DNA of 64,000 nt from Camelus dromedarius (lineage: Eukaryota), in contig NC_087436.1 of assembly GCF_036321535.1 (NCBI RefSeq), forward strand, positions 8,246,001 to 8,310,000, in the 5' to 3' direction. Below are positions 3,358 to 45,864 of the stretch, piece after piece. The position numbers were made by a program, and so were the translations under genes. Under the pieces are notes generated by a model. That model saw only the letters and a list, made by a program, of their open reading frames with translations, was not told the DNA's origin and did not search any database. Numbering within the stretch: position 1 is the first letter of the stretch; every line of letters begins with the position of its first letter.

Positions 3358-3434
3358 CTGCTGTGACACAAAATTTCCTCCTGGAAATCAGTTGTGCTGT
3401 TTTGTTCTAAATTTTGTGTGCCACACTGTCTGAA
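3358..3434 (-). pseudogene. Exon 14 (77 nt, 0-2): FRQCGTQNLEQNSTTDFQEEILCHS
   Basis: tcttatattttcag|...CAG|gtatct; only the phase-0 frame is open. Confidence 0.7.
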
Positions 3435-3529
3435 CTGAAAATATAAGACATGCATGAAATAAAATCTTATTAGATTTTAGACATTATTGGTTAAAGATAC
3501 GAAGCATTTCACCAGGAAGGATATATAAC

Positions 3530-3905
3530 AAAATATAATTTGAGATGATTTTTGGTCAAATATAATCTCTCAAGTTTATTAAGGTACATATTGCATAAAT
3601 TAAAATGCTAGTATTGTAAGTGCCCAATTCAGTGACATTTGACAAATACATACACTGATGTAACCATCACCTTAACAGAGATGCAGAATATTTCCTTCAA
3701 TCACCTCAGCCAGCCTCCTGGTTCCCCTTTACAATGAATTTCTCCCACCTTGGTACCAGTGACCACTGATGTAATTTTTAACAATAGATTAGTGCTATCC
3801 ATTCTACAACTTTATATAATGAAATAATATAGTATGCACTATTTTAAGTTTGTTTTTTTCCCAGTATAATATTTATCATTCAATGTTGGTCTGTTTATCA
3901 ATTAT
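3530..3905 (-). mobile_element. Old L1M 3' fragment
   Basis: typical L1M 3'UTR text (gacaaatacatacactgatgtaaccatcacc, gaaataatatagtatgcact). Confidence 0.7.
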
Positions 3906-4928
3906 TCATGGTTTCCTTTATCTTTTTTATATTTACCTTTTTCTTTAATCATATTTTTCACTAGTAAATTGAAAACATTCAAAGCTATTTCTTTTACATC
4001 TGTCTCCTGTATCCAACATCAGAGTCATCTGGGATAAATGATTTGGTTCTGTCACATTATCCTGCTTTTTTCCCATGTTGAATAGTTTTTACTTTGGGAA
4101 AGACAGTGTTGATGATACGTGGAAGATCCCCAGAATTGTTATATTTTACTTGAACTTGGGCAACTTGTTTTTCAGTTCTTCTTGTGCATATCTGGGAAAA
4201 ATCCAAGGGGTTGTCCATGTCTCTCTCACACAGTAGACATGACCTTCAATTTTGTCTTCCCTGTTGGTTTTGCAGGGTTTGCTTTTAGGTGTTCTTAAGA
4301 TAATAGTCCATTCAAGACCTGAGAAACAGCCTTTGCTGCTAAAGTACAGGCTTTCTGTTGTCAGGGTTGAATGTTAAGGGGTGGTAATATATACATCATG
4401 ACTTATCTGGAAATCCAACATTTCCACAGCAGTTCTTAACATCTAGTGTCTCTCATATTTTCTATCCCATGGAAACTTTCTTCTGGTAATTCTCGTATGA
4501 AGATGCTCTGAGCATGCACTGCCAGGTTCTTGGCCAAGGGATCTCAGGGAATCTCCACAAAAAGATCTGGGGTTTCTGTCTGGGAAACATCCTCCTCTCC
4601 TGTGCTCTAATCTGCTGAGTTCAGACACTTCATCTGCCCTAAACTCTGATCTGCGCCTCCTCAGCTCAGAGGGACCACCACGGTCTACTTGGACTTGAGT
4701 TTGCCCCACCGGTTCAGAAACAGAACATGGACCAAGAGCTGGGGTCAAATCTGGGCAGTGATGTGCATCGTGAGTTTTCTTCCTGTAATCAGTTTTACCA
4801 AATGCTGAAAAGCATTTATCTCATATTTTTATCTCATTTATTTTGTCCAGATTGATGATTTTTAGAGAATTAAGAGCAGTCTGATGTCAATCACTTTTCA
4901 TCACTGGAACAGAACAAGTCCATTTTTT

Positions 4929-5516
4929 TGTCAAAAGGTTGGCCCCTGTCCCTGACTAGCCAAATTGAAACTCAGAGACTGGGTCTTGGAGCTTAGAAGA
5001 AAAGAGACAGCTTTATTACTTTGCAGGGCAAAGGGGACTCACAAAAGGCTGGTGCCTTCAAAACTGTGAACCCCCTTTGGGGACGGGGTAGGGTGATTAT
5101 AGAGCTGTAGCTCAAATAATAAATAATCAACAGAATCATTTTCTCATCATAAGACTAAAGTGGTGTCATGATGCCTCCAGGTGACCAATTCTATAGAAGC
5201 TAGCTGTTGTCACTTTGTTTTTTTATCTCTTTACCTCTAAGCACCCAAGGTGTGGTCTTCTTGGTATTTAGCCTATTTTGTAAGGTTACAATTCTGTGAC
5301 TTCCTCCCTGGAGAACAACTCAGAAACCAAGCATGATTATTACTTTTGATTACTGGAATAAAACAGAAACAGTAAAATGAATAGCTTTATTTTAAGTACA
5401 GGGCCTGGAGCTGTGAATAGCAACCAGTCAGTCAGGTCAGTTGACCATTTAAAGGGCAAGCATAAGAATAAGCAATCTGTTAGCCTAAATGTGGCCATTT
5501 GATTAATCTTCCTTCA
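4929..5516 (-). mobile_element. Solo ERV LTR
   Basis: TG...CA, gctttatt (AATAAA on minus) near left end. Confidence 0.75.
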
Positions 5517-5970
5517 CATTCAAATGTATTTTTAAATTTATGGTTTCCCACAAAATTATGCAACAAATAGGAAATGATACATTATGTATGATGATAGAAA
5601 ATTCCATATGCCTTCCTTCAAGTGGACTTTTGAATTTTGACATATTTGGGTTTTTTAATAATCACCTTAAATGATTTAAATCATCCATAGACTATTTAAA
5701 TAATCTAAATAATATTTAAATATTTATTTAAATACTCTTCAAATATACATAAGGTTTTGGAATCATGAAAACGTTATTATTGTTTACTTAAAGATCAAAT
5801 AATATGCTCGGGGTTCCCCACAGAACAATTCCAACAACTGGGGTATTGCAATAAAACCCTAAATGTCTCAAACATACAAATTCTAAATCTGTATTATAGA
5901 TGAGGAATAGAAAAAAAAATTGATTTTCTCTGCTTATATACATTAAAACAATGCAGCTGATAACCCTTAC

Positions 5971-5997
5971 CTCCTTTAGAGGCTGAAAAACCTTTTG
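5971..5997 (-). pseudogene. Exon 13 (27 nt, 0-0): QKVFQPLKE
   Basis: ttttcattttgtctccaaatag|...GAG|gtaagg; resembles DED LFQRLQE helix. Confidence 0.7.
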
Positions 5998-6162
5998 CTA
6001 TTTGGAGACAAAATGAAAAGGATTCTGAGTCCGCACACTAACTATATGCTGTGTAAATAAATGCTCCAAGGACCAGATCAGTCTCGGTGTTTCAGAAATT
6101 TACAACCCAGTAATATCTCCCTGGCACTGGTCTTCATTTTCCCTTGCAATGTATACACATAC

Positions 6163-6282
6163 TTTTGAGTTAGATAAATCTCTCTGGAGATCTTTCACAA
6201 TCTCTACAGAAGTAGGTGAATTTCCCAAGGTTATTCTTAGCCAAGAATCGCCAGTTCTTAACAAAATTAATGCAGGAATCCT
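6163..6282 (-). pseudogene. Exon 12 (120 nt, 0-0; alternative CAG acceptor at 6287): inferred ancestral RIPALILLRTGDS/LAKNNLGKFTYFCRD/VKDLQRDLSNSK
   Basis: tttttgtgtccctgcagaatag|...|gtatgt. Open end to end as RIPAL...WLRITLGNSPTSVEIVKD...; the DED-like middle (LAKNNLGKFTYFCRD) sits in a shifted frame between two compensating 1-nt indels. Confidence 0.7.
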
Positions 6283-6365
6283 CTATTCTGCAGGGACACA
6301 AAAATATTTCTATACACTCAAAATGTTCCTCAAAGAAAAATTTAAGAGGAATTATAGAGCCTTAC

Positions 6366-6401
6366 AGATGGTTCTAACATTGTGACTCTTTGAGTAGTTT
6401 T
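6366..6401 (-). pseudogene. Exon 11 (36 nt, 0-0): KTTQRVTMLEPS
   Basis: tttgttaatttgtttcag|...|gtaagg; short (~80 nt) intron to exon 12, like the exon 6-7 arrangement. Confidence 0.65.
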
Positions 6402-6843
6402 CTGAAACAAATTAACAAACAGAATGCCATAAGGTTCTAGATTTTGCTTGGAAGCAAATCATTGTGAACACACCTATAAATACACACTAATGGAGAGCTC
6501 AGTCTGCACTATAAAAATAATTCTTGGGGTGATGAAATTATTTTACACTTGATTGTAAATATGAGTAATTATGTAAATGTATTCAAAGTATACTTGGAAT
6601 GGTTTAATTTTATTTTATGTAAATTACAACTCAGTAAAGAAGCATAAACTACATGGTAAAAACATTTGTTGCAACTTAAAAATGTTTTTGCCAACTTTGC
6701 CCTTCCAAAACAAGAAAAAAAAAAAAAGTCTACCTAATTCCTTTCATTTGGTTATTATTATTAATAATACCAATGAGATGAAATCTTTTGAAATCACTAA
6801 GTATAATGTAACTGCTATAATGCAAGCATACCTCTGGGATGCT

Positions 6844-7332
6844 TGTGAACGAAAATACTGCAACCACAAAAGTAAATAAAAAATGCTGAAACCAAGGCAT
6901 CACCAGCTGCCAGCATCACCAGCTGCCACCACCCCCAGTGAGGACAGGCCTGCAGCCCCGCCTCTGCAGCCACTCACAGTTGTGCACCCTGAGGGGACTC
7001 AGAATAAGAAAGGACAGGATACTGGCCCTAGATAGCTAGGTGCTTGTCAAAGGGATGAATTTAATGAGCCCAAATGTTTGCTTCCTCCCATATGTAGAAA
7101 AGCACTAAATTCTTTAACTTGAGATGCCTGGTTTTCTTTAGATAACAAGTAATCTTTTAATGTTCCAACTACCTGGTCTTTGTTGTAAAGATCCTATAGA
7201 TCCTGGCTCCTCCCCTACCTCTTTGGAGCAGTGCCACAGAGCCATCTGAGGGGCTGTCATCCCAGCTCAAGTCCTCCCGCCAAATAAAACATAACTTTTA
7301 ACTTTTAGGCTGTGCATTTATTTCAGTCGACA
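6844..7332 (+). mobile_element. Solo ERV1-type LTR
   Basis: TG...CA, AATAAA near 7283, perfect TGCT TSD. Confidence 0.85.
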
Positions 7333-8671
7333 TGCTGCAAGTTCAGTTCCAAGCCACCACAATAAAGTGGATATCACAATAAAGTCACACGATTTTTTTG
7401 GTTTCCTGCTATATATAAAAGTTATGTTTACAATATACTATACCTATTAAATGTTGTTGATCTTAAACAAATAGACTACCAGATATTTCTCCAGCAAAGA
7501 TGGGTTTATTTAGAATCAACAGAGAATTGCAATCCAGGGTCTAACCTTGGTGAGCCCCGTGCAGATCCCTACCCGGCAAGGGAAGGCGGATGCCTTTGCA
7601 GAGGGGAAGGGAAGTTGGGAGGGCCATCATGAACAAAGAGTACATGGATTTCCACTGGCTGAGTCCTTGCCCGGATAGAAGAGGGGTCTTTCTCCTTCCT
7701 GTTGGGCTCTGCATCATCACAGGGCATGAGAACTCCCCATTCTGGTCTCCCAACTCTATTTACTTGAGGTTTCTGTTTATAGGTGTTCTCCATTTGCTCC
7801 TTTTGATCAAGGTCTTTCTCTGAAATCATCACTGATCAAGAGGCATGTTCTCTAATTTCAGCAGCTTTTTGTCCCTCAGTGTCAGGAAAGACCCATCCTA
7901 GCCCTAGGAATGGCCTGATGAGGTCAGGGAGGAATGGCCTGAGCCCGACCCTGCAATAAGTTAGGTGTGGTACCCCAGGGGTAATTCTAGAGACCTGCCA
8001 GGACTTCCCCCAGTGAGTGGTTTTCACCCAATGCTGGACCTGACCTTTAGGAGCTCACTGATGTAAGTCATAGAAGCCAGGTTGGTAAGTTTAAATGACT
8101 ATATTAAATTTCTCAGCACATTTGAGGATATTTGTTTACTTTGGGAACATCTTTAGCTATGGCTCACAATTCAGCTTTAGTCCAGGGAGAATGAGAAATT
8201 AAAGGTTTAGCCCCTGGACCCTCAAAAGACTTAATTTTAAAGGGACAGATTCTGACAAGTCGGGAGAAAAGGGAGTGGGGAGCATTTCAGAGAAAAGGGT
8301 AAGTTTGGTAAGAGAATTAGCAGGTGGGAGTTGAGGGTATAGGAGACGCAGAGGCGGCCCAGAAGGGAAGGAAAAGATGGTGCCAGCGGTGGCGTCTGAG
8401 ACCAGGAAGTCCAGGAGGAGGCGCCTGAGGCTTCTAACATCATTTTGTCTTCTTTTAATCATTTGTTTGACTCAGTTAATCTTAAAATCTTATTTTGCAG
8501 AGTCTCCTGATAACATTGGGAAGATTCAAAATAAGCATTCCACTCAAGATCTGGAAATCTTTGAGCTATTGTAGTCCATTTCAATTTTAAAGCAATTAAT
8601 TTGGGGATTTTAAAAAGATCCCCATTAGGGCCATTGATATTCTAAATTGCCTTCTATCGAGTCCATCTATT

Positions 8672-9241
8672 TGTTGCTGAACACAAGTTTGTGGACCTGA
8701 GGCACCGTGAAGCCAAGCAAGCTGAAACATCAGAGCTGGGAGCAGAGAAAGGTTTATTGTGAGGCCAAGCAATTAGAATGGGTGGCTTGTGCCCCAAAAC
8801 CCCAAACTCTCTGATGGTTTTCAAGGAGAATTAAAGGCAAAATTTGGGGTGATGGCTGCAGGTTGTGTGACTTTGTCCTGATTGGTCAGTGGGGGGGGGT
8901 GACAGGGTGGCAGTCCAGGAATCTTGTGCTCTGCCTGAAGTTGCCAACCTCCACCTGGGTAGGGGGCCTCAGATCCTGGGGAAGAACTCAGAGACAGTGT
9001 TAAGTGTAATTCCTCGAGGGAGAACCAGGACCCTGCCCTGAGGCTGCACTGTTGTTTCTTGACTGCTCCCCCTTTGTTTCTATGTTCCTTCCCTTCTCTG
9101 ATTAGCAACTGTTTAAACCTGCGCTTTGGAACTCAGGGAAGGTCAAGGAGGCCGCCTGAAGCTTATTTCTTACAAACAAGAAGGGAGGGACACGGAAGAT
9201 TTATACCCAAGAGGGCCCCCACAGGGTCTTGCTGTATTTCA
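8672..9241 (-). mobile_element. Solo LTR nested in provirus
   Basis: TG...CA, TSD tatt/catt; related to 49130-49756. Confidence 0.85.
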
Positions 9242-10100
9242 CATTTGGTTAGAAATGAGTATGAGGAAGGACCATGGCTTTAAAAATAAAATTGTTGTTG
9301 TTCCTATAGGAGGGGGTGCCCTCAAAATTCTTAGGTAACTGGGCTCCCATCTCCTAGAGATTTTTCCTCTAAAAAACAATTTTCAAACAGCGCAAAGAGC
9401 TTCCGGCAATGAATGGCTCAAATTCAAACAGCTTGCAAGCCAATTCCAACCAGACTGAAGAAGACAAGTTGATCCCAGAAAAGCCAGGCTGAAGGCCTTT
9501 TTAAAGCCAGTCTCCAGAGGAGGATATTCCTTCCAAAGGAAGAGGCCAAAGGCTGAAAACCTAGCATAGTTTCAGTTGAAGCAGACCCTCCCAAAGGAAT
9601 TGAGACAAAGGCAATTTCACTGAGCTTTGGTTGAAACAGTCGTTATCTCAAGATCAGACCAAAGTGTCAAAAGGGTACTCACATAGAGAACAAGGTTTTA
9701 ACCAGAAAAACAAAAGCTTTGAATAGATCCTGGGTAAAGCCTGGAGAGCTTTAAATGCAACAGAATGAGAGCTCAGGTCCAGGAGAAAGATGTACCTTCA
9801 GATTCCAAGGTCACCCTGAAAAGAGTGAGTGACGAAGTGACAATTGTGGGTATTGCATCTGTTTGCTGACCAGTCCTGAAGCCATTGGATGTCTTCTCTG
9901 GTCCCTGTGGAGGCCACCAAAATGGTGACACAAAACAAATAGGCTGGTGGATACTTCTCCAGCAAAAGTGGGTTCATTCGGGATCAGCAGAAAATTGCAG
10001 TTCAGGGTCTGTGGACATGGTGAGCCACATGCAGGTCCCTGAACAGCAAGCAAAGGAGAATGCTTTTAATAGGGAGGGAAAGACGTTGGGAAGGCTTTAG

Positions 10101-10754
10101 GGTTGCGGGCAGATGCATCTGGTGTCCAGGTTCTTGTCCCGTCCCAGAAAGAATTCAGAAATGAGACATGGAGGTTAAGACAGTGAAGTGAGGATTTATT
10201 AAGGGATGGATAGCACACTCTCAAAGGGAGAGCAGGCAGGCTCAGCTGAGCAGCTGCCCTCAGTTTCTTTGGCAAGATGGTTACAGAGGGTGTAAAAATA
10301 AATGGTGGAATATTCATTGGGGAGGGAAGGGTTTGGGGTCACATACTCTGATGTTCACCCCAGCTCCATCGTCCTGAAGGGAGGAGGGATTTTTGTCCTT
10401 ACTTAGTCTGGATTGGAAGAGTCATGGCGTCAATGTATGATGGCTACTTCTAACCTGCAAGGCTAATTTTATTGAAATGAGGGCATGATGAGCAAAAGGT
10501 TACATTCAAACATTGGAGATTCCTACCTTTTTCCACCTTTGTTTGTCAACTTCCAGGCTGCTCATCAACCCAAAAGTTGTGGCCGCTTATCAGCACAGAG
10601 ATTCCTGCTTTTCTTTCTCTGCCCAGGGACCCCTGGTGCTTATATGATGTAGGGTTTCCTGTATATGGCCTGTGCCCTCCTTTCTGCACAATTCCTGCCA
10701 TTTGGCCTGTGTCCCCCTTTCTCTGCTCATATCTAGTATCTGCTTGCTCTAACA
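10101..10754 (-). mobile_element. Solo LTR nested in the provirus 5' LTR
   Basis: TSD ttag/ctag; homologous to 46297-46890. Confidence 0.85.
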
Positions 10755-12328
10755 CTAGGAAATGCAGAGTCCATGGCTTTTCACTGGCTGAGTCCTCACC
10801 AGGAAAGAAGAGAAGGCTTCCTTCTTCCCATTGGGCTCTGTTATTGTCACAGGGCCCGTGAGCTCCCCATTCTGGTCTCCCAATTATACTAAGGTTTCTA
10901 TTTAGTAATTTTTACAGTGTTCAGTAGCATTATCTAAAGACAAATACATTCTTTTATTTAAAAATAATTTATTGCTAAAATATGCTATCATGTGAGCCTT
11001 CAGAAAGTCATGGTAATGACATCAAAGATCACTGATCACAGATCCTCATAACAAATATAACAATAATAAAAACAATTTGAAATATATGTAACACAGAGAT
11101 ATGTAGTGAGCAAATGCTGTTGGAAAATTGTCACTGATAAACTTGCTTGATGTCAAATTGCCACAAGCCTTTAATTTGTAAAAATTGCAATATCTACAAA
11201 GTTCAATACAGCAAAGCACAGTAACGTGAAGTGTGCCAGAATCTATTCACGGAATATTAAATAATTCCAATGTTGCAACAGTAATGATAAGAGTAGTATC
11301 CAAAAATTAAAACAAGGACTTCAATCCAGTACCAATCTACCTTAAAAAAAAACAAAAAGCAATAAAACAATGCCAGAGAATTGGTAGTTAATACTTATCT
11401 TCTGATTATCCTAAATTATTCTAAATTTGAGGTATTATGTCACTAACTTCTACAATTCATCCCAACTAATTCTGATGACCAATAAGAAGTCAAGTTACAA
11501 TTTGTCTTCTTAGTGTTTAAAATTACTATGTACATTAAATGTCAAATGCAGCATGATAAAAGATAATGGTAGGAACTGTGTGTCATGTAATACAATCAGA
11601 CATTTAAAAAAATTATTTCAGAAAAATTAAAAAAAATAGCTCTAGGAGAGAGGTGCAAAAGAATTCCACATGGAAGAATTATAGTTCAATCACACAAATA
11701 CAATAATAATATGAGTAAGAACATATGACATTCTAAACAAGTAACTTCTAGTAGGAGGGACAAGGGGATTTCAAGTGCATTTCAAAGACTACATAATTAT
11801 AAGTTAAAATACTTTAAATAAACCTACATAAAAAAGACCACAATCATACAATCAATGCCTTTTTTCTAAGTGTGATATCACAGCCACGTGATACTGGGTT
11901 AATAATGTATTGAGTGTGATATGAAATTTTTTAGTTTCCAAGGCAACTAACTTTTTGATTTTCTATTCAAGGTGCAAGGGCTTTCTGTAAATTAAAGATA
12001 TTGTCACATTGCTTTCATTTAAAAATCAGAAAAAAATTGATTTAAAATTGTAGCATTCTACAAAAAAAGTAAATGCAATTTTTATTTTTCCAATTTATGT
12101 TTTATATAGATCCTTTAAACTATCTAGATGGAGAGTTAAAAAAAATACTCTTAATTAATTGGGCAAAGGGCAAAATTAAAACAAAGATATTTTTGTAATT
12201 GTCATCATTTTAAAAATTCATGTTTCAAACTAAAGGATCCTTGAAAATCAGAAAGTATTTAGCTAACCCCATTCCTAAAGTGGTATCATGTTTGCTAAGA
12301 AGGGTGTATGTTTCCGATAATTCCTCAC

Positions 12329-12484
12329 ATTGTAGTGCTGGCTATTTAGGTAATTTGAGTCTATCTCATAAATCTTCAGGTCCTCTGCCTTTTCTCTCAA
12401 AATCTCTGATAAAATTGTTCTGGTTTCCTCAGTGTGATCCCAAGTAATTAGAGTCTCCCTTTTGTGTGTGAATCATGTTCTACT
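12329..12484 (-). pseudogene. Exon 10 (156 nt, frameshifted near 5' end): VVEHDSH / KRETLITWDHTEETRTILSEILREKAEDLKIYEIDSNYLNSQHYN
   Basis: ttttattttattaaaag|...|gtgagg; 48 open codons ending in phase 0. Confidence 0.65.
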
Positions 12485-12632
12485 CTTTTAATAAAATAAA
12501 AACGGAATAAAACATACAGAGTTGAAATTCTCTTGGAACGTTAGAAGTGAAAAATCAGAATCCCAAGTTTTATCAATTGAAATAATCTCTGGAAAGGAAT
12601 GATAACTACAGTGCCCTCAAGGAGTGACTTAC

Positions 12633-12745
12633 ACAAATCCACGTGCCATCAGAGAATAATAATGAATAAAGCAATCTAGGTTTGTCTTATGAACACAGAA
12701 TTTTCCTGACAATCTTTTAAGTAAACCAAGATTCTAAGTGTGGTT
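12633..12745 (-). pseudogene. Exon 9 (113 nt, 0-2): NHT*NLGLLKRLSGKFCVHKTNLDCFIHYYSLMARGF
   Basis: ccctgcctag|...|gtaagt; resembles C-terminal DED helices (caspase-8 [23 protein letters not shown], from memory). Confidence 0.7.
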
Positions 12746-12872
12746 CTAGGCAGGGATATGCTGTTATGCTGGGTTTTTTTGTTTTTTTCCTGTTAAATTC
12801 ATTGGGTGAAATGGACATAGTGCTTACAGGGACCTACACAATGTCCCAGGCCTAGATCCCCCCACCCCAAAA

Positions 12873-12887
12873 ATGTGTATATGTGCT

Positions 12888-12919
<32 letters not shown>

Positions 12920-12985
12920 CATATATATATAAAATATGTGTGCATGTGTATATAATGTGTGTGTATGTGTGTATATATATATATA
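12873..12985. repeat. Compound (TG)/(TA) microsatellite
   Basis: direct inspection. Confidence 0.9.
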
Positions 12986-13019
12986 GTCTTAAAATGTTTT
13001 GTGATTGTCTCATCCTATT

Positions 13020-13256
13020 TTTTTTAATTAACCTATAGTCGGTTTACAATGTTGTGTTAATTTCTGGTGTATTGCACAGTGTTTCATATATATATACATA
13101 TATATATATTCATTTTCATTTTAAGTTATTATAGGATATTGACTATAGTTCCCTATGCTATAGAGTAGGATCTTATTGTTTATTTATTTTATATATACTA
13201 GTGCATATCTGTACATCCCAAACTCCCAGTTTACCCCTCCACCTGCCCTCCTACCC
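13020..13256 (-). mobile_element. 5'-truncated artiodactyl-type L1 3' end
   Basis: polyT head, L1 3'UTR text, perfect 14-bp TSD tgtctcatcctatt (13006-13019, 13257-13270). Confidence 0.9.
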
Positions 13257-13279
13257 TGTCTCATCCTATTAATAACCAA

Positions 13280-13770
13280 TGTTGTGGTTGTATCAACCTT
13301 TGTGGTTCTTATTGTGATCGCAAGACTCCCTTCAGCAAAAATCAGGAAACTTGTAAAAAAATAAGTTTACCACTTACAAGACCTAGAAATTACACAGCAC
13401 ACCTGGAGCCACACAGCAAGGTAATGGGCAGAGAGGGTGCAAGAGGGGTTGTGCTTTATTGGGATGGAGGGTGGGGCCAGCCCTAGGGCTTAGTGGGCTT
13501 TTTTACTGAATTTACAACAGAAGAGCAGGAATTTAAAGTGTGGGGGAAAAAAGACCGCAAGTAGTCTAATGGTCAGTTTTTGAACTCAATCAAGATCTCT
13601 AAAACGAAGTAGCCTCAGTGGAAGGAGATGACCTGGTTCTTTATGTCTGCAGCTGGCAATGTGTTAGAGATAGCCGTCCTTGAAGTGGATGCCACAGCAC
13701 CAAACCTAGGTCAGGCACTTGCATTACAAAAAAGAAAGAAACAAAAACACTTGTCAGGGCTTACCCCACA
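13280..13770 (-). mobile_element. Solo LTR (older ERV1-like)
   Basis: TG...CA, ~490 nt, minus-strand AATAAA. Confidence 0.6.
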
Positions 13771-13974
13771 CAAATGTATGAATAATGACCTGGAAGTTAG
13801 TAGGTAACATATATTCACTGAAATGGTAATGACACAAGATGTGGAACTGTATCAAATGAACAATTCTATCCAGGAGACATTATGTTTATAAAATACATTA
13901 TATTTAAAAATAACTCTGCTCCTATTTTCTCACTTTGCAAAAGTTTTCAAGTTCTGCTACTCTGTGATCATTAT

Positions 13975-14439
13975 TGTTGACTGAAGAAAAATGCATAGCC
14001 TCAAAGTCACAAGTTATGTTTTATTTGGGGACCTTACTGAGAACTATAGCCCGGGAGGCAGCCTCTCACATCAGTCTGAGGAATTGCTCTGAAGAGGTAA
14101 TGAAGGATCTGGGATACAAGGAGTTTTTGCTGGAAAAATCAAGAACAAAAAATATAAAAATGTAGTGAACATCAAAGATTACTGCTAATCCCCCAAAACA
14201 GACATCTCAAGTTAATGATTTTTTGTGTATGGGAAGATGCAAGGGTTTGGATTCATTGAAATTTTCCTTAAATATACATCTCAACTACATAGAACTATTA
14301 TCCTAAATGCTTCTTGTTTTTTCTCCATTCTTAATGCCCCTCAGGGGCACTCTGTTGGGGGCAGCCACAGTGACTGACGGCTTGGTGGTGAACAGCATTT
14401 GTTATTTACTGCAAGGGCAGGCAACATACCCTGTCCACA
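13975..14439 (-). mobile_element. Solo ERV LTR
   Basis: TG...CA, TSD ttat/gtat. Confidence 0.8.
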
Positions 14440-14532
14440 GTATAAATTATAGCCAACTGTGAATTTAATGAGTTCATCTCTTCAGAATTATTTCAGAAGC
14501 AAATTGTTAACAATATTCTTTTGCATTCTTAC

Positions 14533-14592
14533 AGCCGTAGGTAAATCCATCATAGATGTATTTACATTTTTATATTTGATCTATATTAGATC
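14533..14592 (-). pseudogene. Exon 8 (60 nt, 0-0): DLI*IKYKNVNTSMMDLPTA
   Basis: tctccttgacttacag|...|gtaaga; 1 stop. Confidence 0.6.
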
Positions 14593-14936
14593 CTGTAAGT
14601 CAAGGAGACTTAAGTTCTGCTAAAGTCTTTAAGTAGCTCTAGTCTTTCAAATACTAGCACAGTCAGCCAAGTTTTAAAATATTGTTTTAAATTTGTAAAC
14701 CATTGGATTCAATGACAGTAAAGCATATGAGGTTTTACTTCCCTTCTAATATATAACATTATTCTGTGTCATAAAAACAAATTCAATGTATTTATTTCCT
14801 TCAGTATAGACTAGTAAAGAAACAATATATGGATGGTTGTCATACAACAGACCTGGAGAGAAGTGGGAAATTTTAACACATCTAACATTGTGCTAATTGT
14901 TCTGCTTAGTTGGCTTTGCCTGACTGTGCTGAATAC

Positions 14937-15716
14937 TGTTAGTCTAGAACTTTGAAGGGTCTGAGATTTTAAGCTCACAAGCTAAGCTAGCAAATTAGCC
15001 TACCATAGTTATAAATATCTATGCCTGTGTTTGTATGTATGCATTAAGTACATAAATGTACTATAAATATTTATGGACATATATGTATGTGCATATGTGG
15101 GTGTCTGTGTGTACAGAAGATTCTTTGGGTTAGAGACAAAGACCACTTACTACTCACAGAAATAGCACCAGCCATAGTGATATCGTGTGTCAGTTTTTTG
15201 AGTATCAGTTCCCATGAGGGTGGCTCAGTGAAGATGAGATGGTTTTGCACGTGCCATGGGGTCAAGTATGAACAAGGAGCTCTGTATTGGGAAACGGTGA
15301 GTACAGACAGGGCTGATGCTTCCCTGTCTATATGAGAGAGAGAGAGAACGTATCTTTACTCTGGAATGAAGAGAATAAATTCTATTCCAGAGAGGGGAAT
15401 GGTATTTCACTCTCCTGGAATGTCTCTGAGGAGGGAGACACTCTCTGCCTGTGTAATGAAAAAGCCACCCTTTCGGGCTTGGACGGAGACACTGTCTATG
15501 TCTTCAAAGAATGTTTTCTATGCCTTGACTATGCATAGCAAAGTTCTGAGTCTCAAAGATAAACGGAATGTGTTTACTCATGACAGCATAGTCTAATAAA
15601 GGGAATATGTCTTTGCAAATAAGCAAATATCTTTGCAAAGATTGCCAGTGCCCTTTGCTTGGAAGATCCAGCCTGTGTGAACATAAGATGCTCATGGAGA
15701 ATTATGTGTCTCAATA
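14937..15716 (-). mobile_element. Old ERVL-class LTR (LTR40/MER74-like)
   Basis: gaagggtctgagatttt...gggttagagacaaag...catggagaatt recalled motifs. Confidence 0.6.
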
Positions 15717-15831
15717 GACACTTAATCTTAATTATGGTGCTTAAGTAGGTTTCATCCAGCACAGCTATTTTATACAACACTGTCTATAAAAATCATTTAA
15801 ATAACTTTCTAGAATGTTAAATAATAACAAC

Positions 15832-15973
15832 AGGAATTTTTGAGAGGTCTGAATTCATATTTTTAACAACTATAACACGATTCTTATTCTTAACGAGGTT
15901 ATTTTTTGAGAGTTTATTTCAGATTTCCAATCTACGCTGGAAACAACTGTAATAGTTCTCAATCTCTAATTCC
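15832..15973 (-). pseudogene. Exon 7 (142 nt, 2-0): RELEIENYYSCFQRRLEI*NKLSKNNLVKNKNRVIVVKNMNSDLSKIP
   Basis: Long pyrimidine tract ending ccatcg (AG damaged); GT donor at the same codon position as in paralogous exon 12; shares L.KNNL.K and VK....DLS with exon 12. Confidence 0.65.
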
Positions 15974-16040
15974 CGATGGAAGATAAGAGAAAGATTTCTC
16001 TATGAAATCCGCATGTATTTCCTCCTCTTCCCATTCTCAC

Positions 16041-16072
16041 CTTCTCCATCCTTGCCCAGGGAAGTAGCTGTC
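16041..16072 (-). pseudogene. Exon 6 (32 nt, 0-2): DSYFPGQGWR
   Basis: strong donor GAAG|gtgaga; weak acceptor caacaag. Confidence 0.5.
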
Positions 16073-16204: not shown

Positions 16205-16228
16205 TTGGTCCAAAGCTGTACAGATTCC
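16205..16228 (-). pseudogene. Exon 5 (24 nt, 0-0): GICTALDQ
   Basis: ctttttattttag|...|gtaaat. Confidence 0.6.
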
Positions 16229-18114: not shown

Positions 18115-18322
18115 AGGGGTCAGGAGTCAAGCAGTAAATATTTTAGCATTTGTGGGCTATATGGCTCAATCCACCACTGACTCAATAACTCAGATATACC
18201 ATTAAGATGTAAAAATGCCCATTGGCAACACACTAAAAAAAGGGTAAATTTTCCAATAAAAGTCTATTCACATAAAGAGACTGTGGAACAAATTTGTCCT
18301 ACAGACCACAGTTTCTAAGCCT
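18115..18322. mobile_element. MER58-like hAT MITE
   Basis: caggggtcag...agtaaatattttag...gaccacagttt. Confidence 0.65.
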
Positions 18323-18387
18323 CTTTAATAAAAAGATGAAATATAAGATAACATAAATAATCATTAAGTGACTGCTATAAAAAGTAA

Positions 18388-20880
18388 CAGTGTTGTCAAG
18401 AAAAATATAATGTAGGCAACATACATGAGTTTAACTTTTTATCAAGACTTATATAAAAAATAAGAAGAAACAGGTAAAATAATTTCAATAATAGAGTTTA
18501 TTTAACTATAAATTCCAAATATTATCTCAACAGATAAGCAATGTAAGATTATTGATATTTTACTTTTTTTAATATAAGACTTTAAAATTCAGAGTATATT
18601 TTCCATTTATATTACATTTCAATAAGGACACAGATTTTCACCAAGAGACACCTGATTTGTATTTAGCTTTTATAAAATTTCAGTTGAAAAACTAGATACA
18701 TATTCCTAAACATACGGAGGCATTTTCTAATAACTCAATCAAGTAACAGAACGTCATTTTCCTTTAATGATCCATGTTCAAAAAGCTGGTTCATCATTTT
18801 TCAAGAACTGGTTTGACTTTGGAGGAGAAACGTATCAGTTCTAACATATCTATCCAAATTCAGGAAATCCATTGACTATTCTAACTGAGTATTCCTAGCA
18901 TAAAAGGTAGAGTTTATCAAATAAATTGAACAGAAACTACAAATTTATCAATATTGACAAAGTGCTTAAATTTTCTTGTGGTTTTTATAGCTATTGCATA
19001 TGATGCTGTAGATTGCAATTAATATCGTCTGCAGATCTTCATTTAGAAATATGGGCAAAGTCATTGTTATTGATATGCATTATGAAAACTCGATTTCAAT
19101 ACAAATTGTAAACTTGTTCAGGAAGCTTGGCTTCATAAGTGTGGAACGTGTGCAGTTGTGCTGGCTGCGCACTAGGAAGGGCTCTGCTTGAATTAATGCT
19201 GTGCTACTGATGTCTTAAAATTCTTACTGTTTTAGAAAGTGTTCCCACATTTAGTTCTGCCCCAGACATCATAAATTATGTACCTGGTCTTGTTGTCTAG
19301 ATAAGTAACAAAAAATAAATGTACTTTTCCTGGGAAATTTAAACGTGGCTTGTACATCTGCAGTGTGATACGAAGACATAGAAATAACAACTAATGTTGG
19401 TCCCTGACTACTGAATATATAGGAGGCATTTCCTTTGTTCAAGAAAGTCTAGAATTAGAGTTAATATCACCGTGATATTCTTCTACAAGTCAGACAGCGA
19501 GCTCTGGCACAGAACATAGTATCACAGAATCCATTCTTTTCTAGTTCTTTCAACAGTTATATGGACCAGTGACGTTTCACAGCATGTGCATATATATACT
19601 GAGTGCCATTAATAACTTTATCCATCCATTTTCTATAGAATCTGAGTCAAATAATTGGGCATATATATTAATATGTATCATGCAGTAATAATAATAAATA
19701 AGAAAACTATCATTTTCTTGTTTTAAAATTCCAATAAATTAGATTTTTTTTCCTAGAATAACAAGACTCATCCATTGTAAGAAATAATTTTTCCATATCT
19801 AGTTGAGATTCTTTTTCGACAACCACAATAGAACTTAGAATATCTTTGTCATGAGCTTGATTTTTAGGCTGCAAATTGGAAACATTTTTTCTTACTTTCC
19901 AAATATTTTGAGAAAATACTTACCTGATGTTTTAAGCAAGGAATGTCTCTTCCACCTTATAGTTGGAACTAAAGCATTTTCAATTTTAATGCATTGAATC
20001 TAATGGTCATAAATATTGTTGGAAAGATTTTATATTATGTAGGTAACTGGTGGCTTAAGAGAAGATTTTTCACTTTGTTAAAATATGATTTTTTTGGGTG
20101 TAGTGTATAATTCTCTAACACAATTTCCTTAAAATGAGTTACTAATTCATTTTATTTCCTCATCATCTAAATATAGCTTTCATTTTGTTTAAGAACGAAG
20201 TCATCTGACAGCTGGCCAAAATTTCACTCAGATCTTGTTAAATAAGATTTTTAAAAGTCTGTTGAATTTTTAGTTCTAATTTCAGGTGAATAATTTTGTC
20301 AAGTTTTTAGCTTTAGGAAGAATTTTCTTTTCAAATTAAGTATTTTTGTCAACTTTATTATCTGTAAATTTATTTTAGGTGACAGACATATAGGTTTCTC
20401 ATTTTATTCAGCCTAGTGAATTGCATTTGGCATTTATTATAAAATTAACAACATACATCTTTTGAACTCTTTTAATTACTTTTCCATCTTCCGCATCTTT
20501 AACCCATTTGGTATCAGTAATATTACTTTATTATAAAATCAATATGTGTACCTTCTTATTTTCAACTAGAAAACTGTTTAATTATAATTAATGTCATAAG
20601 TGTTGTAATTTAATTTAAAATTACAATGTACATAGTACCACTTAACTCACACTACAACACATTATAATATACATAATGCAAGAGTTAGGGTGAAATGTAG
20701 TGCTAACAAAACAGTACATTTGTGTTTGTAGAGTGATAGTTCCTATTTCTTCAGTTTTTAAACTGAAGTGGAAATTAATACATACTAAATAAATTAAAAA
20801 TCCCAACCCTTATTGTGTTAGCCACAGTTCACACGCTCTTAACTGCATGTGGCCAAGGGTAACTGTGCTGGTTGAGGGCT
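18388..20880 (-). mobile_element. Near full-length Charlie5-like hAT transposon (decayed) with nested MER91A-like MITE (~19122-19292)
   Basis: MER33/MER3-type ends separated by ~2.3 kb of AT-rich internal sequence. Confidence 0.75.
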
Positions 20881-21571
20881 TTCCAATTTGCTTAGTCCTG
20901 AAATAGCTTTAATGACACTCGTTAACAATTTACGTAGGAAGTACTATATAATGTCACAATTTTCAACTGAAGTCACCCTCAACAAATTCTTCAAAATAAC
21001 TGTCATCTAACTATCTAAAGGCCACAATTTTCCATGCTAAGTAACCCTGGTTCCTTTATAATTCTTTATATGGCAGGTTTTAAATTGATGGATGGTAACA
21101 TTTTTTTTCCTAAGCCAGAAATAGTGGCACATAGACCATGTAAATTTTGATGGAGTGAATGCAATTATGACGAGGGGTGAGAGAGGTCCAGAAAATAGTA
21201 TTTTTAGAGAGGAGTAGGCAGAATGAGAATGTTATAGCCAATGCATCATGAGACTTGAGGGCAATGACTTCCTGCAATCGAATGAAAGAGAATTGGAAGG
21301 AGAGTTTAAAGGACAAAATTAATCCTGGAGAAAATTGCAAAAAACAGAGTAGAGGCAGATATGTAATCCACAGTCAAATCTCAAATGTCCCCCAAAATGA
21401 TCTACCCTATTTTTAGTTCTTTAGTGGAATTTTGCTTAGTTCACGAGCTCCTATTGAGTTCACAAGCTAGATAATTTAATCTAGCAATGCCACTGTGTTT
21501 CCTCACTTCAACTCGGAAATCAGATGATAATAATAAGCAAATCAGGGTTTACAGGTCTATTTGTTTCTCAC

Positions 21572-22838: not shown

Positions 22839-25800
22839 AAGACAAAGGCATAAGCTTATAAATTAAGCCACCATGAAGATCAGTACTTAGTCTTATGTAC
22901 CATGTATCCGTCACTCCTAGGACAGTACTTGGCACACAGAGGGTCTAAAATACTTTATGAATGAATGAGTGAATAGAAGCTTTTATGTACCCACTCCACT
23001 CTGGATAGTTTAGAATTAATTATAGGAAAATATGTACAATAATATCATTGAATAGTTTATGGTAAAAACCTGTGAAACAGGGATTTGATTATAAAATTAG
23101 ACTAATTATTAAGCAATGTCACATATTTACTTGGAATTACTAGAACATGAACAACTTATTTATATGCAGAGATATGTAAATATGCATGAACATGACTTTC
23201 TGAAATAGGGTCATTCATGTGTTTAATTCTATTAAAAGAGATTTATTTTCTATTAAAAGAGGCTGGATGCCATCCAATGGGACAGACAATCCGTTTTGTG
23301 GGTAGCAGTTCATATTACTTGATTGACATTTTGCACAGTCACAAAATAGTCACTCTGGGTTCAGACTTCTTTGACAGTGGGGACATTTGTTAAGTTATAA
23401 CATGCACACACACATAGTCACTCCTGATGTATGCTTCTAACGATTTTATTATTTTCTTGCAGTGTTCTCGGGATATATAGCAAAACAAAGTCCTTTACTG
23501 CACTGCGACAAATACAGAATGTTTGAAGATGGGCTTTTCCAGAATGCCTCTTCAGGAGGGGATGGAGCAGAGGGCAGCCCCTCTGCAGCACGGTTCAACA
23601 CGCTGCCCCTCCCTTCACAGAGAGCATCTCTTTATTTCATCACTTTTTTCCTGGTTTTCATTGGGGAATAAGGAAGGTCAAAGTAATACTTTGAGTTTAA
23701 TTAGCATCATCCACTGGGCTAGAAGGGGAGGCAGAGAAGAAGACTTGGATGAAGCAAATTTCCATTGAGCACATTATGAAATAAAAGCAACTTTGTCTCG
23801 TGGTTAAACTTTCCACGATCTTATATCAAGCATCATTTTTATCTGAACACATTCAGAACACAGCTTTGCCTTTGCCATGGCAACGCTTTCCTTAGGACTA
23901 CACACCGCCAGAAGGAATGACTCTTTTTCCTTCCACTTTGAACACAGTGCTGTTCCACATTAAGCCTGTGATCTCTCTGACCACTTCCTCCAAAAAAAAA
24001 AGTTTTCTTAATCCCCCTAAGATGTCTCTTATTCTATTGAAGACATTCTTTTTAATTTGATGAATTTCACACATACATGCTTATGTTTATTTCAAATACA
24101 GTGTAATAAAATTGATAATGTGGGAGCATCCTTCCAGGGCAATGAGCTAGAGAGAGAAAATGTGAGGGATATTGTAGATAAATCTGAGGTATCTTCAGGA
24201 GCTAAAGGACAGAGGAGAGATAGACGATGGTGAAAGAAAATGGGAGAACTTCATAGCGTCCCCCAAATCATAAAACACATTTTATGAGGTTATAAGAGTA
24301 AGATTTCATTTATAATATAATTAGTCTTACCGTTAAATAGCAGAAGTTACATGTATGGAAGACAGGCATCCCACTTGTGTAATTATTAATTGTTATTATT
24401 ATAACAACATGTTTTAATTGTTGGTGTTTAAGAGTGCTGATTATTCATAAATTATTTATCTGACCTTGACAGTCTCATAGCAGAAAAGAGAGAATCTGTG
24501 TAAAGCTGTAAACGTTAGATCCTTGACTGCCTGTTTATGTTTCATCATCAAGGATTATTCTTTCTATATACTTTCCCGAGTAGCTCACGGCTTCATAAAT
24601 GATTTATATACAAGTTAGAGATAATAATAAATGCTTTTTGATTGATAAAGAATAGCCGTTTCATTTTATTAATGAAATTTATCTATTTTATTGTTATTAT
24701 TGGGAACCTTGATGCATCATTAATATCTCTTGATAATATGAAATCTGCTTTCTTAGATCATTATTCCGTTCAGTCTCCTTCCCTCTTTAGCTGATCTTGC
24801 ATCATGGGAAATAATTCCTATTAAACAAAAATAGGTAATTTTCACACCAAATTTCACTTTGAAATATTGCATACAAAAGATAGCCTCTTTTTCCCCTGTT
24901 ACATCAGTAAATATGTTATGGGGTCGGGGGATGACAAGTGGCATTTCTCACTGCGCATAAGCGGAGAGTTTGTGACACAGCTGTATATCCATTTGGGTGA
25001 TTTCTTTGCAAGCATTGAAAATTATGATTCTGGCTACTTTAACAAATTGGATTTTACTGTAAGACTATTAAAAATCCTGGAAGTCAGTGATAAGGCTGAG
25101 AAAACAGATTTGGAAATTAGAAGCAACTGAGGCACCTCGGGAGGTGAGAAAGGAGCACTGCATTGTGGGAAGTGTGCAGTAGGCACTGCTGCTGGGAAAG
25201 TGACCTTCAGTCTCTCCCCAAGATCAGGGTCCCAGGAGGATGTGAAGGTGCCTTCACTTCTGCTGTACCTGGAGGGTGAGAGAACGCATCTTCAAATAGT
25301 CTCCAAGAAGTCTTTTGTTTTCCATAGATGGAGGGCAGGCAACTTGATTCAGCATTTGTCCAAATCTGTTTGTAATGTGGGATTCCTCAAAATAAATGTA
25401 AGTGTCTATAAAAAATGGAATGAGGGGTAGGGTGGACAAAAACAAATGAGGATTATAGTAGGTGGTGTGTTCATATATATTATCGATTTCACTTCCGTGT
25501 GGTATTTTAGTCCTCATTTTAATTGTTTTCAACCTAAATGTGTTATTGAAAACTACAGGTTTAGGCTCAACTGAGAATGAATTATGGAAGGAAAAGAAAA
25601 GTGACTACCATTAGTTGTCACAGCTTCCTCCGCTCACTCCAGAAGCTTCTCATTTTCTAGATCTTAAAATAAATGCAATTGATTAAAATAGGTGAAATTT
25701 CCCTACTAATTACCCCTCCTTTAGGTTAATGTTGAATGCCATTTTCCTTTGCAATAAAATGCATATTACATACATAGCTCTTTTATTTGTGAACAGCTTT

Positions 25801-27420: not shown

Positions 27421-27945
27421 TGAATGATGTAGTACACATGCACATTAGTAGGCTCCATTAAATGATCCTGATTTTCTGTTGGATGGGCAGATCTAGGCAG
27501 TGCAAGTCAACTTCAGAAGATGGCTGCCCCCAAGCTGTCCAGCGACATCCATTCCTTGGTAGAAAACCCAGTTGTAAACAGCATTTTGAAAAAAAAAAAA
27601 TTGTGTCTTCATATTTCAACAGGTGGTTTTGGTATTATGTAGCCTGTTTGAATTATTTAATTCAGAGAAGATTTCCTGTTTTTAATTCAAAATTGATGTT
27701 CCAACTTATATTTAGTTACAGAGCTAAGAATGATAAAGTCTCAGTTATTTGCATTGTGAAGAAGGGACAGTTATAATTTTGATGATAAAATAAGTTGAGT
27801 ATTAAAATCCTTTACTCTCACCATTCTGTCCACTTCAGTCTTATTCCATGGGTTGGTCAGACAATTTCATACACTCAAATTCCCAGTATGACAGTCAGTC
27901 ACACTATTATTCTTTGAAAGAAAAGGATTTTTTCATTCCTATAAA

Positions 27946-28462
27946 TGTTACTAAAGTCCAAACTCGTTCTGCTCACCACAAGACAGGCCAATAAGTCAGG
28001 AGATGAGGAGTTGGGGCAAGGAATAATGACTTTATTCAGAAAGCCAGCAGACCCAGAAGGTGGCAGACTAATGTCCTGGAGCACCATCTTCTCCAATCAG
28101 AATTCAGGGTCCTTTTATACTAAGAAGGGAAAGGGTGTGGTTGGTTGTTGCAAATTTCTTGGTGTCAGAATCCTTTGTTCTTGAAACTGTCCACATAGGT
28201 CAGGTCATGGTGTCCCTGTTAACCTCTAACAAGACAAGTGTTATTTTCTATTCTGCAAATTTTAATCTGTATATGGATAGGAAACTGTTACACCCTTAAA
28301 GGTCAGAGCCTTGAGAATGGGCTGCCCTGTATATTTCAGGCTCTAGGCAACATCCTTTTATAAAAGGTGCAGAACCAGCATGACTGAGCACAGGAAACAG
28401 CATAGGGTTAGAGCCAAAGGAACAGATCTAACATGAAGTCAGATTTGTTCTTCCCTATTACA
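27946..28462 (-). mobile_element. Solo ERV1-type LTR (family with 4 copies in window)
   Basis: TG...CA, perfect TAAA TSD. Confidence 0.9.
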
Positions 28463-30897: not shown

Positions 30898-31431
30898 TGT
30901 TACTGCGTCCAAATTCATTCTGCTCACAGCATAACAGGCCAATAAATTGAGAGACAAGGTGTCGGGGCAAGGAATAGCGACTTTATTTGGAAAGCCAGCA
31001 GCCTGAGAAGATGGCAGACTAATGTCGTGGAGAACCATCTTCCCCAAGTCAGAATTCAGGCTCCTTTTATTCTTTTTAGAGGGGGCATGTTTGGTTCTTA
31101 CAAACTTCTTGGTGTAGGAATGCTTTGTTCTTGGAATCCTTTGTTCTTGCAGCTGTCCACATGGATCAGATCATGGTGTCCCTGTAAACCTCCAATATTA
31201 CAAATATTACTTTCTATTCTGCAACTTGTTATCTTTATATGAATGGAAAAGTGTTAATATCCTTAAAGATCAAAGCCTTGAGAATAGGCCCTCCTGTTTA
31301 TTTCAGCCTCTAGGCAACCTTCTTTTATAAAAGGTGCAGAACCAACAAGACTAAGCCTATGAAACAGAGCACAGGGTTAAAGTCAAGGGAACAGAGCTCA
31401 TATGGAATCAGATTTGTTCTTTTCAACTACA
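30898..31431 (-). mobile_element. Solo ERV1-type LTR (same family)
   Basis: TG...CA, perfect AACA TSD. Confidence 0.9.
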
Positions 31432-32461: not shown

Positions 32462-32976
32462 TGCAACAGAGAGCAAACCTGACTCCATATTGGATCTGTT
32501 CCTTTAGCTCTAACCCTGTGCTCTGTTTCCTGGGCTCAGTCATGCTGGTTCTGCATTTTGGTAAAAGAATGTTGCCTGTGGCCTGAAATATACAAGACAG
32601 CCCATTCTCAAGGCTCTGACCTTTAAGGGTATACCGCTTTTCCATTCATATAGAGATAAAAAAGTTGCAGAACAGAGACTAATATTTGTCTTGTTGGAGG
32701 TTTATAGGAGCATCATGACCTGATCCACATGGACAGCTGCAAGAACAAAGGATTTCTGCACCAAGAAATTTTCAACCACCAACCACACCTCCTCCCCATT
32801 TAATATAAAAGAAGTCTGAATTCTAACTCAGGCAAGATGGTTCTTTGGGACACTAGTCCACCATCTTCTTGGTCTGCTGTCTTCCTGACAATAAAGTTGC
32901 TATTCTTTCCCCCAAGGACTCATCCGTCGATTTATTGGTCTGTTGTGTGGTGAGCAGTGAGCTTGGACTTATAATA
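32462..32976 (+). mobile_element. Solo ERV1-type LTR (same family)
   Basis: reverse complement of 27946-28462; AATAAA near 32890; TSD atca/ataa. Confidence 0.9.
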
Positions 32977-39429: not shown

Positions 39430-39530
39430 AGAGGGGGGCAGCTCAGTGGTAGAGTGGATGCTTAGCATGCACAAGGTCCTGGGTTCAACTTCCAGTACTT
39501 CCATTAAATTAATAAAATACAATAAATTAA
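39430..39530 (+). mobile_element. Camelid tRNA-derived SINE (Vic-1-like)
   Basis: A box cagctcagtggtagag, B box gggttcaac, A-rich tail. Confidence 0.85.
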
Positions 39531-39749: not shown

Positions 39750-39880
39750 GGGGGAGGGTACAGCTCAGTGGTAGAACATGTGCTTAGCATGCACAAGGTC
39801 TTGGGTTCAGTCCCTGGCACAACCATTAATAGTAAGCAACAAACAAACGAACAAACCTAACTACCCCTCCCCCCCAAAAT
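39750..39880 (+). mobile_element. Camelid tRNA-derived SINE (Vic-1-like)
   Basis: gggggagggtacagctcagtggtaga...gggttcagtccc; (AAAC)n tail; degenerate TSD aaaagtt. Confidence 0.85.
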
Positions 39881-45779: not shown

Positions 45780-45864
45780 TTTTTTTTTTTTAATAGAGCT
45801 CCTGAGGATTGAACCCAGGACCTCGTGCATGTTAACCACACACACTACCACTGAGCTACACCCC
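45780..45864 (-). mobile_element. Camelid tRNA-derived SINE (Vic-1-like)
   Basis: polyT then gattgaacccaggacctcgtgcatg...ctaccactgagctacacccc. Confidence 0.85.

What the first reader, a model, noticed from the sequence alone, without database searches (positions are those of the whole stretch)
3358..16072. Internal duplication: exons 6-10 and 11-15 are paralogous modules
Seen: exons 7 and 12 share L[SA]KNNL[VG]K-x7-VK[ND]xxxDLS and both end with GT exactly three codons after DLS. Each is preceded by a 32-36 nt exon across a very short intron, and followed by a 0-0 exon, a 0-2 exon and a phase-2-start exon. This self-similarity supports the gene model independently of any remembered homologue. 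Inference: repeats B and C arose by tandem duplication of a multi-exon unit.
Basis: seen in the sequence. Interest (0 to 1): 0.7.

Follow-up and report, generated by a model that had tools for sequence, protein, structure and literature searches.

The report
Decayed gene with repeated exon cassettes
This stretch holds the broken remains of an unidentified mammalian gene built from two, probably three, ancient copies of the same set of exons, which may once have encoded cell-death signalling ("death") domains.

Summary
The duplication is real but narrower than claimed, and the gene is broken. On the minus strand, exon 7 (15973-15832) and exon 12 (6287-6163) are each other's best non-self match among 6,559 GT-anchored sites. 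They differ mostly at third codon positions (17/11/25 of 32) and have matching neighbours: introns of 67/78 and 159/165 nt, then a 27-nt exon. The shared motif exists in exon 12 only if one base is skipped. Exon 7 has an in-frame stop, a CG acceptor and a weak donor, and DNA alignment alone is not significant. The other four exon pairs are not separately significant and exon 10 was not found. A probable third cassette lies at 25570-25269. Module B cannot be spliced stop-free, so this is a pseudogene. No homologue was found. Best guess for the repeat is a death domain (about 45%): only module C scores (z 3.3-4.2), and HMMER and hhalign find nothing. The scan had not met this on other DNA.

The parts
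25534..25570 (-).
25269..25405 (-). Module A, second exon candidate (137 nt, AG/GT present); probable third copy of exons 7/12, with TGA at the conserved Trp column; frameshifted
   Evidence: tied second of 127,860 non-self positions; not recovered by the gapped scan
25085..25111 (-). Possible remnant of the module A 27-nt exon, 157 nt downstream; no AG or GT left; weak
16205..16228 (-). 24-nt exon candidate with fair splice sites upstream of module B; role unknown
16041..16072 (-). Exon 6 (32 nt): poor acceptor, strong donor
15832..15973 (-). Exon 7 (142 nt): acceptor CG, donor GTTGTT, one in-frame TGA; paralogue of exon 12
15646..15672 (-). Exon 8 (27 nt): AG acceptor, GC donor
14430..14592 (-). 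Exon 9 (163 nt): good splice sites, three in-frame stops
6366..6401 (-). Exon 11 (36 nt), AG/GT present
6163..6287 (-). Exon 12 (125 nt): one extra base between the two halves of the shared motif
5971..5997 (-). Exon 13 (27 nt, phase 0-0, strong donor), reads QKVFQPLKE
5235..5352 (-). Exon 14 (118 nt): stops in all three frames; appears to lack about 65 nt present at the start of exon 9 (inferred from a weak DNA alignment)
3358..3434 (-). Exon 15 (77 nt), AG/GT present; no paralogue found

Best explanation
A unitary (unprocessed) pseudogene on the minus strand. Its ancestor grew by tandem duplication of a 4-5-exon cassette of about 120-150 codons. Two copies (B, 16.07-14.43 kb; C, 6.40-3.36 kb) are well supported and a third (A, 25.57-25.27 kb) is probable.

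SHOWN: paralogy of exons 7 and 12, matching cassette geometry, and present-day breakage.

INFERRED: the duplication is very old and the copies diverged while still coding. Third positions differ in 25 of 32 codons and second positions in 11. A likely route is unequal crossing-over in the long introns between cassettes. After function was lost, stops, frameshifts and splice-site damage built up, most in module B. The gene now makes no three-module protein.

LEAST CERTAIN STEP (about 45%): each cassette encoded one death domain plus a linker. The ancestral protein would then have been a multivalent death-domain scaffold or decoy, seeding or blocking the helical assemblies that such domains form in apoptosis and innate-immune signalling (general knowledge of the family, recalled).
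For: - Reciprocal best match among 6,559 donor-anchored sites, in one direction without any frameshift.
- 12 of 32 residues identical, 9 of them through different synonymous codons (partly circular, since the frame was chosen for amino-acid likeness).
- Joined modules align at BLAST E about 1e-3 to 1e-4, reached by 3 and 0 of 5000 shuffles (frame choices post hoc).
- Flanking architecture occurs at 2 of 126,400 positions.
- Joined module B keeps one frame for 121 codons with 4 stops, against 8 and 12 in the other frames.
- Module A ranks tied second of 127,860 non-self positions with an ungapped B+C profile that counts TGA as Trp, and lies inside an AG..GT exon.
- Death domain: one column is TGG in C and TGA in A and B. 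Module C aligns end to end to a death-domain profile with a single one-residue insertion from the first conserved Trp onward, first Trp on first Trp, and the second Trp falls on the first codon (TAA) of exon 14; z 3.3-4.2, 0 of 150 shuffles. QKVFQPLKE resembles the RIPK1 stretch EKVYQMLQKW printed (by eye).
Against: - DNA similarity alone is at chance level.
- Window-wide sequence-only chance is about 0.05-0.1; the whole exon ungapped ranks third.
- The other exon pairs do not rank, and exon-like AG..GT pairs are not denser here than elsewhere (4 against a mean of 4.5).
- Module A scores 18-21 against a background of 31-45 in the gapped scan.
- Death domain: the same profile finds solved death domains at up to 43 bits but gives the modules about 0 bits in HMMER and under 1% probability in hhalign. 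B and A do not score in the end-to-end test (z -0.5 to -1.2), and the joint z falls from 2.7 to 0.9 when stops are not counted as Trp. Pfam reports no death domain.
- No homologue was found in any search.
Confidence: 0.62

Rival explanations
1. The duplication and decay are real, but the repeat is not a death domain; it is another domain of about 120-150 residues (macrodomain, DED/CARD, or a family with no profile).
For: Local profile tests for the death domain are negative. Exon 9 weakly matches PARP9 macrodomain 2 (E 0.9). Exon 12 weakly matches a leucine-rich-repeat-like protein (E 0.41).
Against: A profile of 28 macrodomains gives the modules -1.5 bits or nothing, and hhalign under 1%. The LRR-like hit is a sum of seven sub-threshold pieces. 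Module C does score against the death-domain profile end to end. DED and CARD profiles were not built; Pfam scans gave neither.
Confidence: 0.35
2. The likeness of exons 7 and 12 is chance in AT-rich DNA; module C may be part of a real or decayed transcript, and module B was assembled by the reader around a chance match.
For: DNA score is at chance level and the single-frame protein score has p about 0.04. Exon 7 has neither an AG acceptor nor a good donor. Sequence-only window-wide expectation is about 0.1. B ranks only tenth on its strand in an architecture scan derived from C.
Against: The best sequence hit also carries a strong donor 67 nt upstream, a top-0.1% pyrimidine tract and a 27-nt AG..GC piece 159 nt downstream. 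The match is reciprocal. Of 60 random queries only 2 reached the score, both in interspersed repeats seen.
Confidence: 0.12
3. Part of the locus is still alive: module C is spliced through alternative acceptors (near 6282 and 5307-5318) into a short open frame of about 100-115 codons, or into a non-coding RNA.
For: All ten splice sites of module C are canonical and in the top 0.2-11% of AG or GT sites. 12,000 splice-and-frame choices among 226,800 site combinations are stop-free.
Against: These frames differ from the paralogue-supported frame in the first half of exon 12. With so many combinations, open frames are expected by chance. No protein record shares three 5-residue words with exon 12 read in the paralogue-supported frame. 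No RNA evidence was obtained.
Confidence: 0.15

Closest known systems
Death domains of RIPK1, THOC1, ankyrin-1 and FADD (Pfam PF00531; PDB 6ac5, 1wxp, 2yqf, 6aci)
   Same: Module C shows a Trp-x-x-Leu-Ala start and, 39 codons later, a Phe-Gln-x-Leu-x-x-stop that aligns to the second conserved Trp.
   Different: No HMMER, hhalign, Pfam or PDB hit. Modules A and B do not score. As I recall, these human genes carry a single death domain, not a tandem array of multi-exon cassettes.
Unitary pseudogenes, e.g. human NRADD, a lost death-domain gene (PMC2864566, passages and supplement rows seen)
   Same: An intron-containing gene disabled in place by stops, frameshifts and splice-site damage.
   Different: Those have an intact mouse orthologue. 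None was found here, and none of the chr4 rows of that paper lies in the distal part of the long arm (highest 123.9 Mb).
Tandem death-fold pairs such as tDED (vFLIP, caspase-8) and tCARD (RIG-I) (PMC11874512, passages seen)
   Same: Tandem copies of one death-fold domain in one protein.
   Different: Those are rigid pairs of DED or CARD. Here there would be three DD-type units, each followed by a linker, and the fold itself is not established.
Macrodomain PARPs (PARP9, PARP14; tandem macrodomains)
   Same: Tandem domains of roughly similar length; exon 9 matches 21 residues of PARP9 at E 0.9.
   Different: A macrodomain profile does not recognise modules B or C; no catalytic PARP part was seen in the regions scanned.

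Membership tests
Internal tandem duplication of a multi-exon cassette | Paralogous exons with significant sequence similarity | tested here: met
   Exons 7/12 are reciprocal best among 6,559 sites; about 0.1 expected by sequence alone; other pairs not significant
Internal tandem duplication of a multi-exon cassette | Same intron positions and exon order in the copies | tested here: met
   Donor three codons after DLS in both; introns 67/78 and 159/165 nt; 27-nt exon in both
Internal tandem duplication of a multi-exon cassette | All five exons duplicated, with symmetric phases at the cassette ends | tested here: inconclusive
   Exon 10 not found; phases blurred by indels
Unitary pseudogene | Introns kept and open frame disabled | tested here: met
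   Four stops in module B, 0 of 1,200 splice combinations open; frameshift in exon 12; stops in exon 14
Unitary pseudogene | Intact orthologue at the syntenic place in another species, and no working copy in this genome | not testable with these tools
   No genome held and no vertebrate DNA collection; protein searches empty
Death domain (PF00531) | Score over the curated cut-off | tested here: not met
   Pfam gave no hit on single exons; a home-built profile gave about 0 bits on joined modules. Decay and exon splitting lower the sensitivity.
Death domain (PF00531) | Two conserved Trp about 35-40 residues apart with the hydrophobic pattern between them | tested here: inconclusive
   Met in module C if TAA stands for Trp (z 4.2; 3.3 without); not in B or A; the first Trp column is TGG/TGA/TGA
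Death domain (PF00531) | Six-helix bundle fold | not tested
   No fold was predicted; the domain is split over four exons and broken
Macrodomain (PF01661) | Profile match | tested here: not met
   (28 sequences, nearly all bacterial, so distant from PARP14-type domains)

The most novel reading that the evidence does not exclude
The locus is the fossil of an undescribed vertebrate gene encoding three tandem death domains, each on its own exon cassette. It lies in the block that matches distal human 4q (CPE to AADAT side), is still intact in some other vertebrates, and was lost in this lineage. It would be an adaptor or decoy of cell-death or innate-immune signalling that is missing from catalogues built on human and mouse.
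Probability: 0.3. Interest if true: 0.6.

Novelty: new member of a known kind. Interest (0 to 1): 0.35.

Why it matters
If the death-domain reading holds, this points to a lost member of the death-fold signalling repertoire with an unusual three-domain layout, and the exon coordinates given here are enough to look for living orthologues. If not, it is still an unidentified decayed gene with no relative in the protein collections searched. The internal duplication itself is an ordinary way for genes to grow, and a dead gene has no present function to study, so the overall interest is modest.

Tried and rejected
HOMOLOGUE SEARCHES, ALL EMPTY
- phmmer of ORF 25257-25604(-) against 1.84 billion representatives: 0 hits. 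This ORF spans an exon, an intron and an exon and is mostly not in the paralogue-supported frame, so the test was weak.
- Word-based searches: exon 12, no candidate; 24860-25291, 0 of 249 candidates. Both covered longer proteins only.
- Pfam: 13, 2 and 6 queries gave only sub-threshold hits (DNA_III_psi, DUF3511, HicA_toxin, YOMG_N).
- Protein atlas: nothing usable. The exon-12 read-through was not searched there.
- PDB sequence searches gave only weak or artefactual hits. The E 2e-4 hit to designed 'Pizza' proteins is a sum over identical repeats, best single piece 7 bits.
- Related-locus scans: 0 of 174 (metagenomes), 0 of 98 (viral), 0 of 43 (prokaryote genomes).

IDEAS DROPPED
- A plus-strand gene in the long frames 24825-25427 and 6029-6385: no Pfam hit, and the splice sites point to the minus strand.
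- A ZU5 domain at 25.3-24.9 kb (recalled likeness): no support.
- Macrodomain and LRR.

RNA
- One search listed one run on record as RNA, with a reproductive-system label and 0.10 of the words, and five more possible RNA runs. No reads were laid, so this is no evidence of expression.

DEATH-DOMAIN SEEDS
- These came from pattern scans (3 of 5 tested loci passed the Pfam cut-off) and a family search (15 matches). 14 went into the first profile and 12 into alignment A2. Searches added little and were not used in the profiles.

PAPERS
- Search listings only; none describes this locus.
- Passages seen: PMC12198960 (its pig gene list for the AADAT-SPOCK3 region names no extra gene), PMC7863760, PMC11874512, PMC2864566 with the chr4 rows of its supplement.
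- Supplements of the other papers and gene-loss catalogues outside the library were not seen and may list this locus.
Full report
Setting. The window is AT-rich (31-45% GC per 2 kb) mammalian DNA with many interspersed repeats that look like LTRs and L1 ends (self-BLAST; the element classes are recalled). Earlier scan notes call the genome camelid and place CPE 3.5 Mb and LRAT 4.4 Mb beyond the window (unchecked AI notes). From recalled human gene order this suggests the block matching distal human 4q, roughly near AADAT. That placement is inference. A pig gene list for the AADAT-SPOCK3 region names no extra gene (PMC12198960, passage).

What is there. On the minus strand I find two sets of exon-like pieces. 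Module B: 16072-16041 (32 nt), 15973-15832 (142), 15672-15646 (27), 14592-14430 (163). Module C: 6401-6366 (36), 6287-6163 (125), 5997-5971 (27), 5352-5235 (118), 3434-3358 (77). Introns are 67, 159 and 1053 nt in B, and 78, 165, 618 and 1800 nt in C. All ten splice sites of C are canonical and in the top 0.2-11% of AG or GT sites. In B, exon 6 has a poor acceptor, exon 7 has CG for AG and a poor donor, and exon 8 has a GC donor. Exon-like pairs are not denser here than elsewhere in the window, so splice sites alone do not prove a gene.

The claimed motif. It is literal in exon 7. In exon 12 its two halves lie in different frames, so one base must be skipped. Across the whole window a frameshift-aware scan gives 2 of 40 and 4 of 40. 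Anchoring at the donor is more telling. Among 6,559 GT sites, the last 32 codons of exon 7 match exon 12 best (47, next 36; about 0.1 expected per window). The last 15 codons of exon 12 match exon 7 best with no frameshift at all (26, next 20). The whole exon ungapped is only third. Of 60 random queries 2 reached 47, both inside known repeats. In this register 12 of 32 residues are identical, 9 through different codons, and mismatches by codon position are 17, 11 and 25. That is the pattern of old coding paralogues, although it is partly built in by the choice of frame.

Architecture. A strong donor 55-95 nt upstream, a pyrimidine tract at the start, GT at the end and a 27-nt exon 150-180 nt downstream occur at 1.3%, 17%, 5% and 4.4% of positions, and together at 2 of 126,400. 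The thresholds were set after seeing the data. Still, that the best sequence hit is also such a position is hard to get by chance. I put the duplication at about 85%. The other pairs add little: exons 9 and 14 share a short Leu..Phe.Arg.Glu pattern, and 8 and 13 share Phe-Gln only after a one-base shift. None ranks in window scans, and no partner of exon 15 was found among 943 candidates.

A third copy. At 25570-25534 (37 nt) and 25405-25269 (137 nt), 128 nt apart, lie two AG..GT pieces. The second aligns to exons 7 and 12 with three invariant columns and TGA where C has TGG and B has TGA. With an ungapped B+C profile counting TGA as Trp it ranks tied second of 127,860 non-self positions. A gapped scan that penalises stops does not find it (18-21 against 31-45). 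I rate it probable, about 65%.

Dead or alive. Joined at these boundaries, B keeps one frame for 121 codons with four stops (8 and 12 in the other frames), and none of 1,200 nearby splice combinations is open. C can be made open with alternative sites, but then leaves the paralogue-supported frame in exon 12. The three-module gene is therefore a pseudogene. Whether module C is still transcribed is open, because no reads were laid.

What the repeat encoded. No search found a homologue. By eye module C looked like a death domain, so I built a profile from 12 Pfam-matched death domains. It finds THOC1, ankyrin, RIPK1 and FADD at 38-43 bits. Local methods give the modules nothing. An end-to-end alignment puts C's Trp on the first conserved Trp and the TAA that opens exon 14 on the second, with a single one-residue insertion between them; z is 4.2 with stops counted as Trp and 3.3 without (0 of 150 shuffles each). 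B and A do not score, and the joint z is 2.7 and 0.9. The segment ends were chosen by me. A macrodomain lead (E 0.9) failed against a 28-sequence profile. I give the death domain about 45%.

Mechanism. Shown: paralogous exons, shared intron positions, disabling lesions. Inferred: ancient tandem duplication of a whole cassette, probably by unequal crossing-over in the long introns between cassettes; long divergence under selection; later loss of function; insertion of repeats between modules. Speculative: the ancestral protein was a string of death domains with linkers, acting as a multivalent scaffold or decoy in death-fold signalling.

Novelty. Internal cassette duplication and unitary pseudogenes are known kinds. 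This locus is not described in the papers listed, nor in the chr4 rows of PMC2864566, and the scan holds no look-alike. It is a new member of a known kind, with a chance of pointing to an undescribed multi-death-domain gene. Verdict: observation partly confirmed, interpretation partly supported, interest 0.35.

Noticed in passing
window 18300-21000: AT-rich stretch that by eye resembles a decayed hAT/Charlie-type DNA transposon (recalled likeness); Pfam found nothing in the three minus-strand frames.
   Followed up: partly
window 24825-25427 (+) and 6029-6385 (+): Long plus-strand frames (201 codons with one stop; 118 codons) antisense to modules A and C; no Pfam hit. Probably a by-product of the minus-strand exons, or chance.
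   Followed up: partly
window 13789-13765 (-) and 11984-11895 (-): Exon-like pieces between modules B and C (25 nt with strong sites; about 90 nt with a weak likeness to exon 15); candidates for the missing exon 10, neither significant.
   Followed up: partly
window 27945-28457, 30897-31424, 32470-32970, 62980-63502: Four copies of one LTR-like element of about 520 nt, 75-80% alike, two in each orientation.
   Followed up: no
window 10128-10685, 46296-46857, 57317-57683: Three copies of another LTR-like element, 75-77% alike.
   Followed up: no
window 39434-39503, 39756-39813, 45780-45864: Short tRNA-derived SINE-like copies; the first reaches the Rfam tRNA gathering score exactly (29 bits, E 0.06).
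   Followed up: no
window 43036-44410: 3' part of an L1-like element with reading-frame remnants; related 3' ends at about 13.0-13.3, 22.1-22.4, 26.2-26.6, 51.3-51.7 and 58.8-59.3 kb.
   Followed up: no
window 50857-50760 and 50683-50525 (-): Two exon-like pieces 76 nt apart that rank second in the architecture scan; the first acceptor lies at the end of an LTR-like element, so probably chance.
   Followed up: partly
L018, L038, L040, L046-L060 (G001): A 10.4-Mb genome bin filed as a bacterium holds 15 death-domain matches; one is identical to a protein that NCBI assigns to a sponge, so the bin appears to contain animal DNA.
   Followed up: partly
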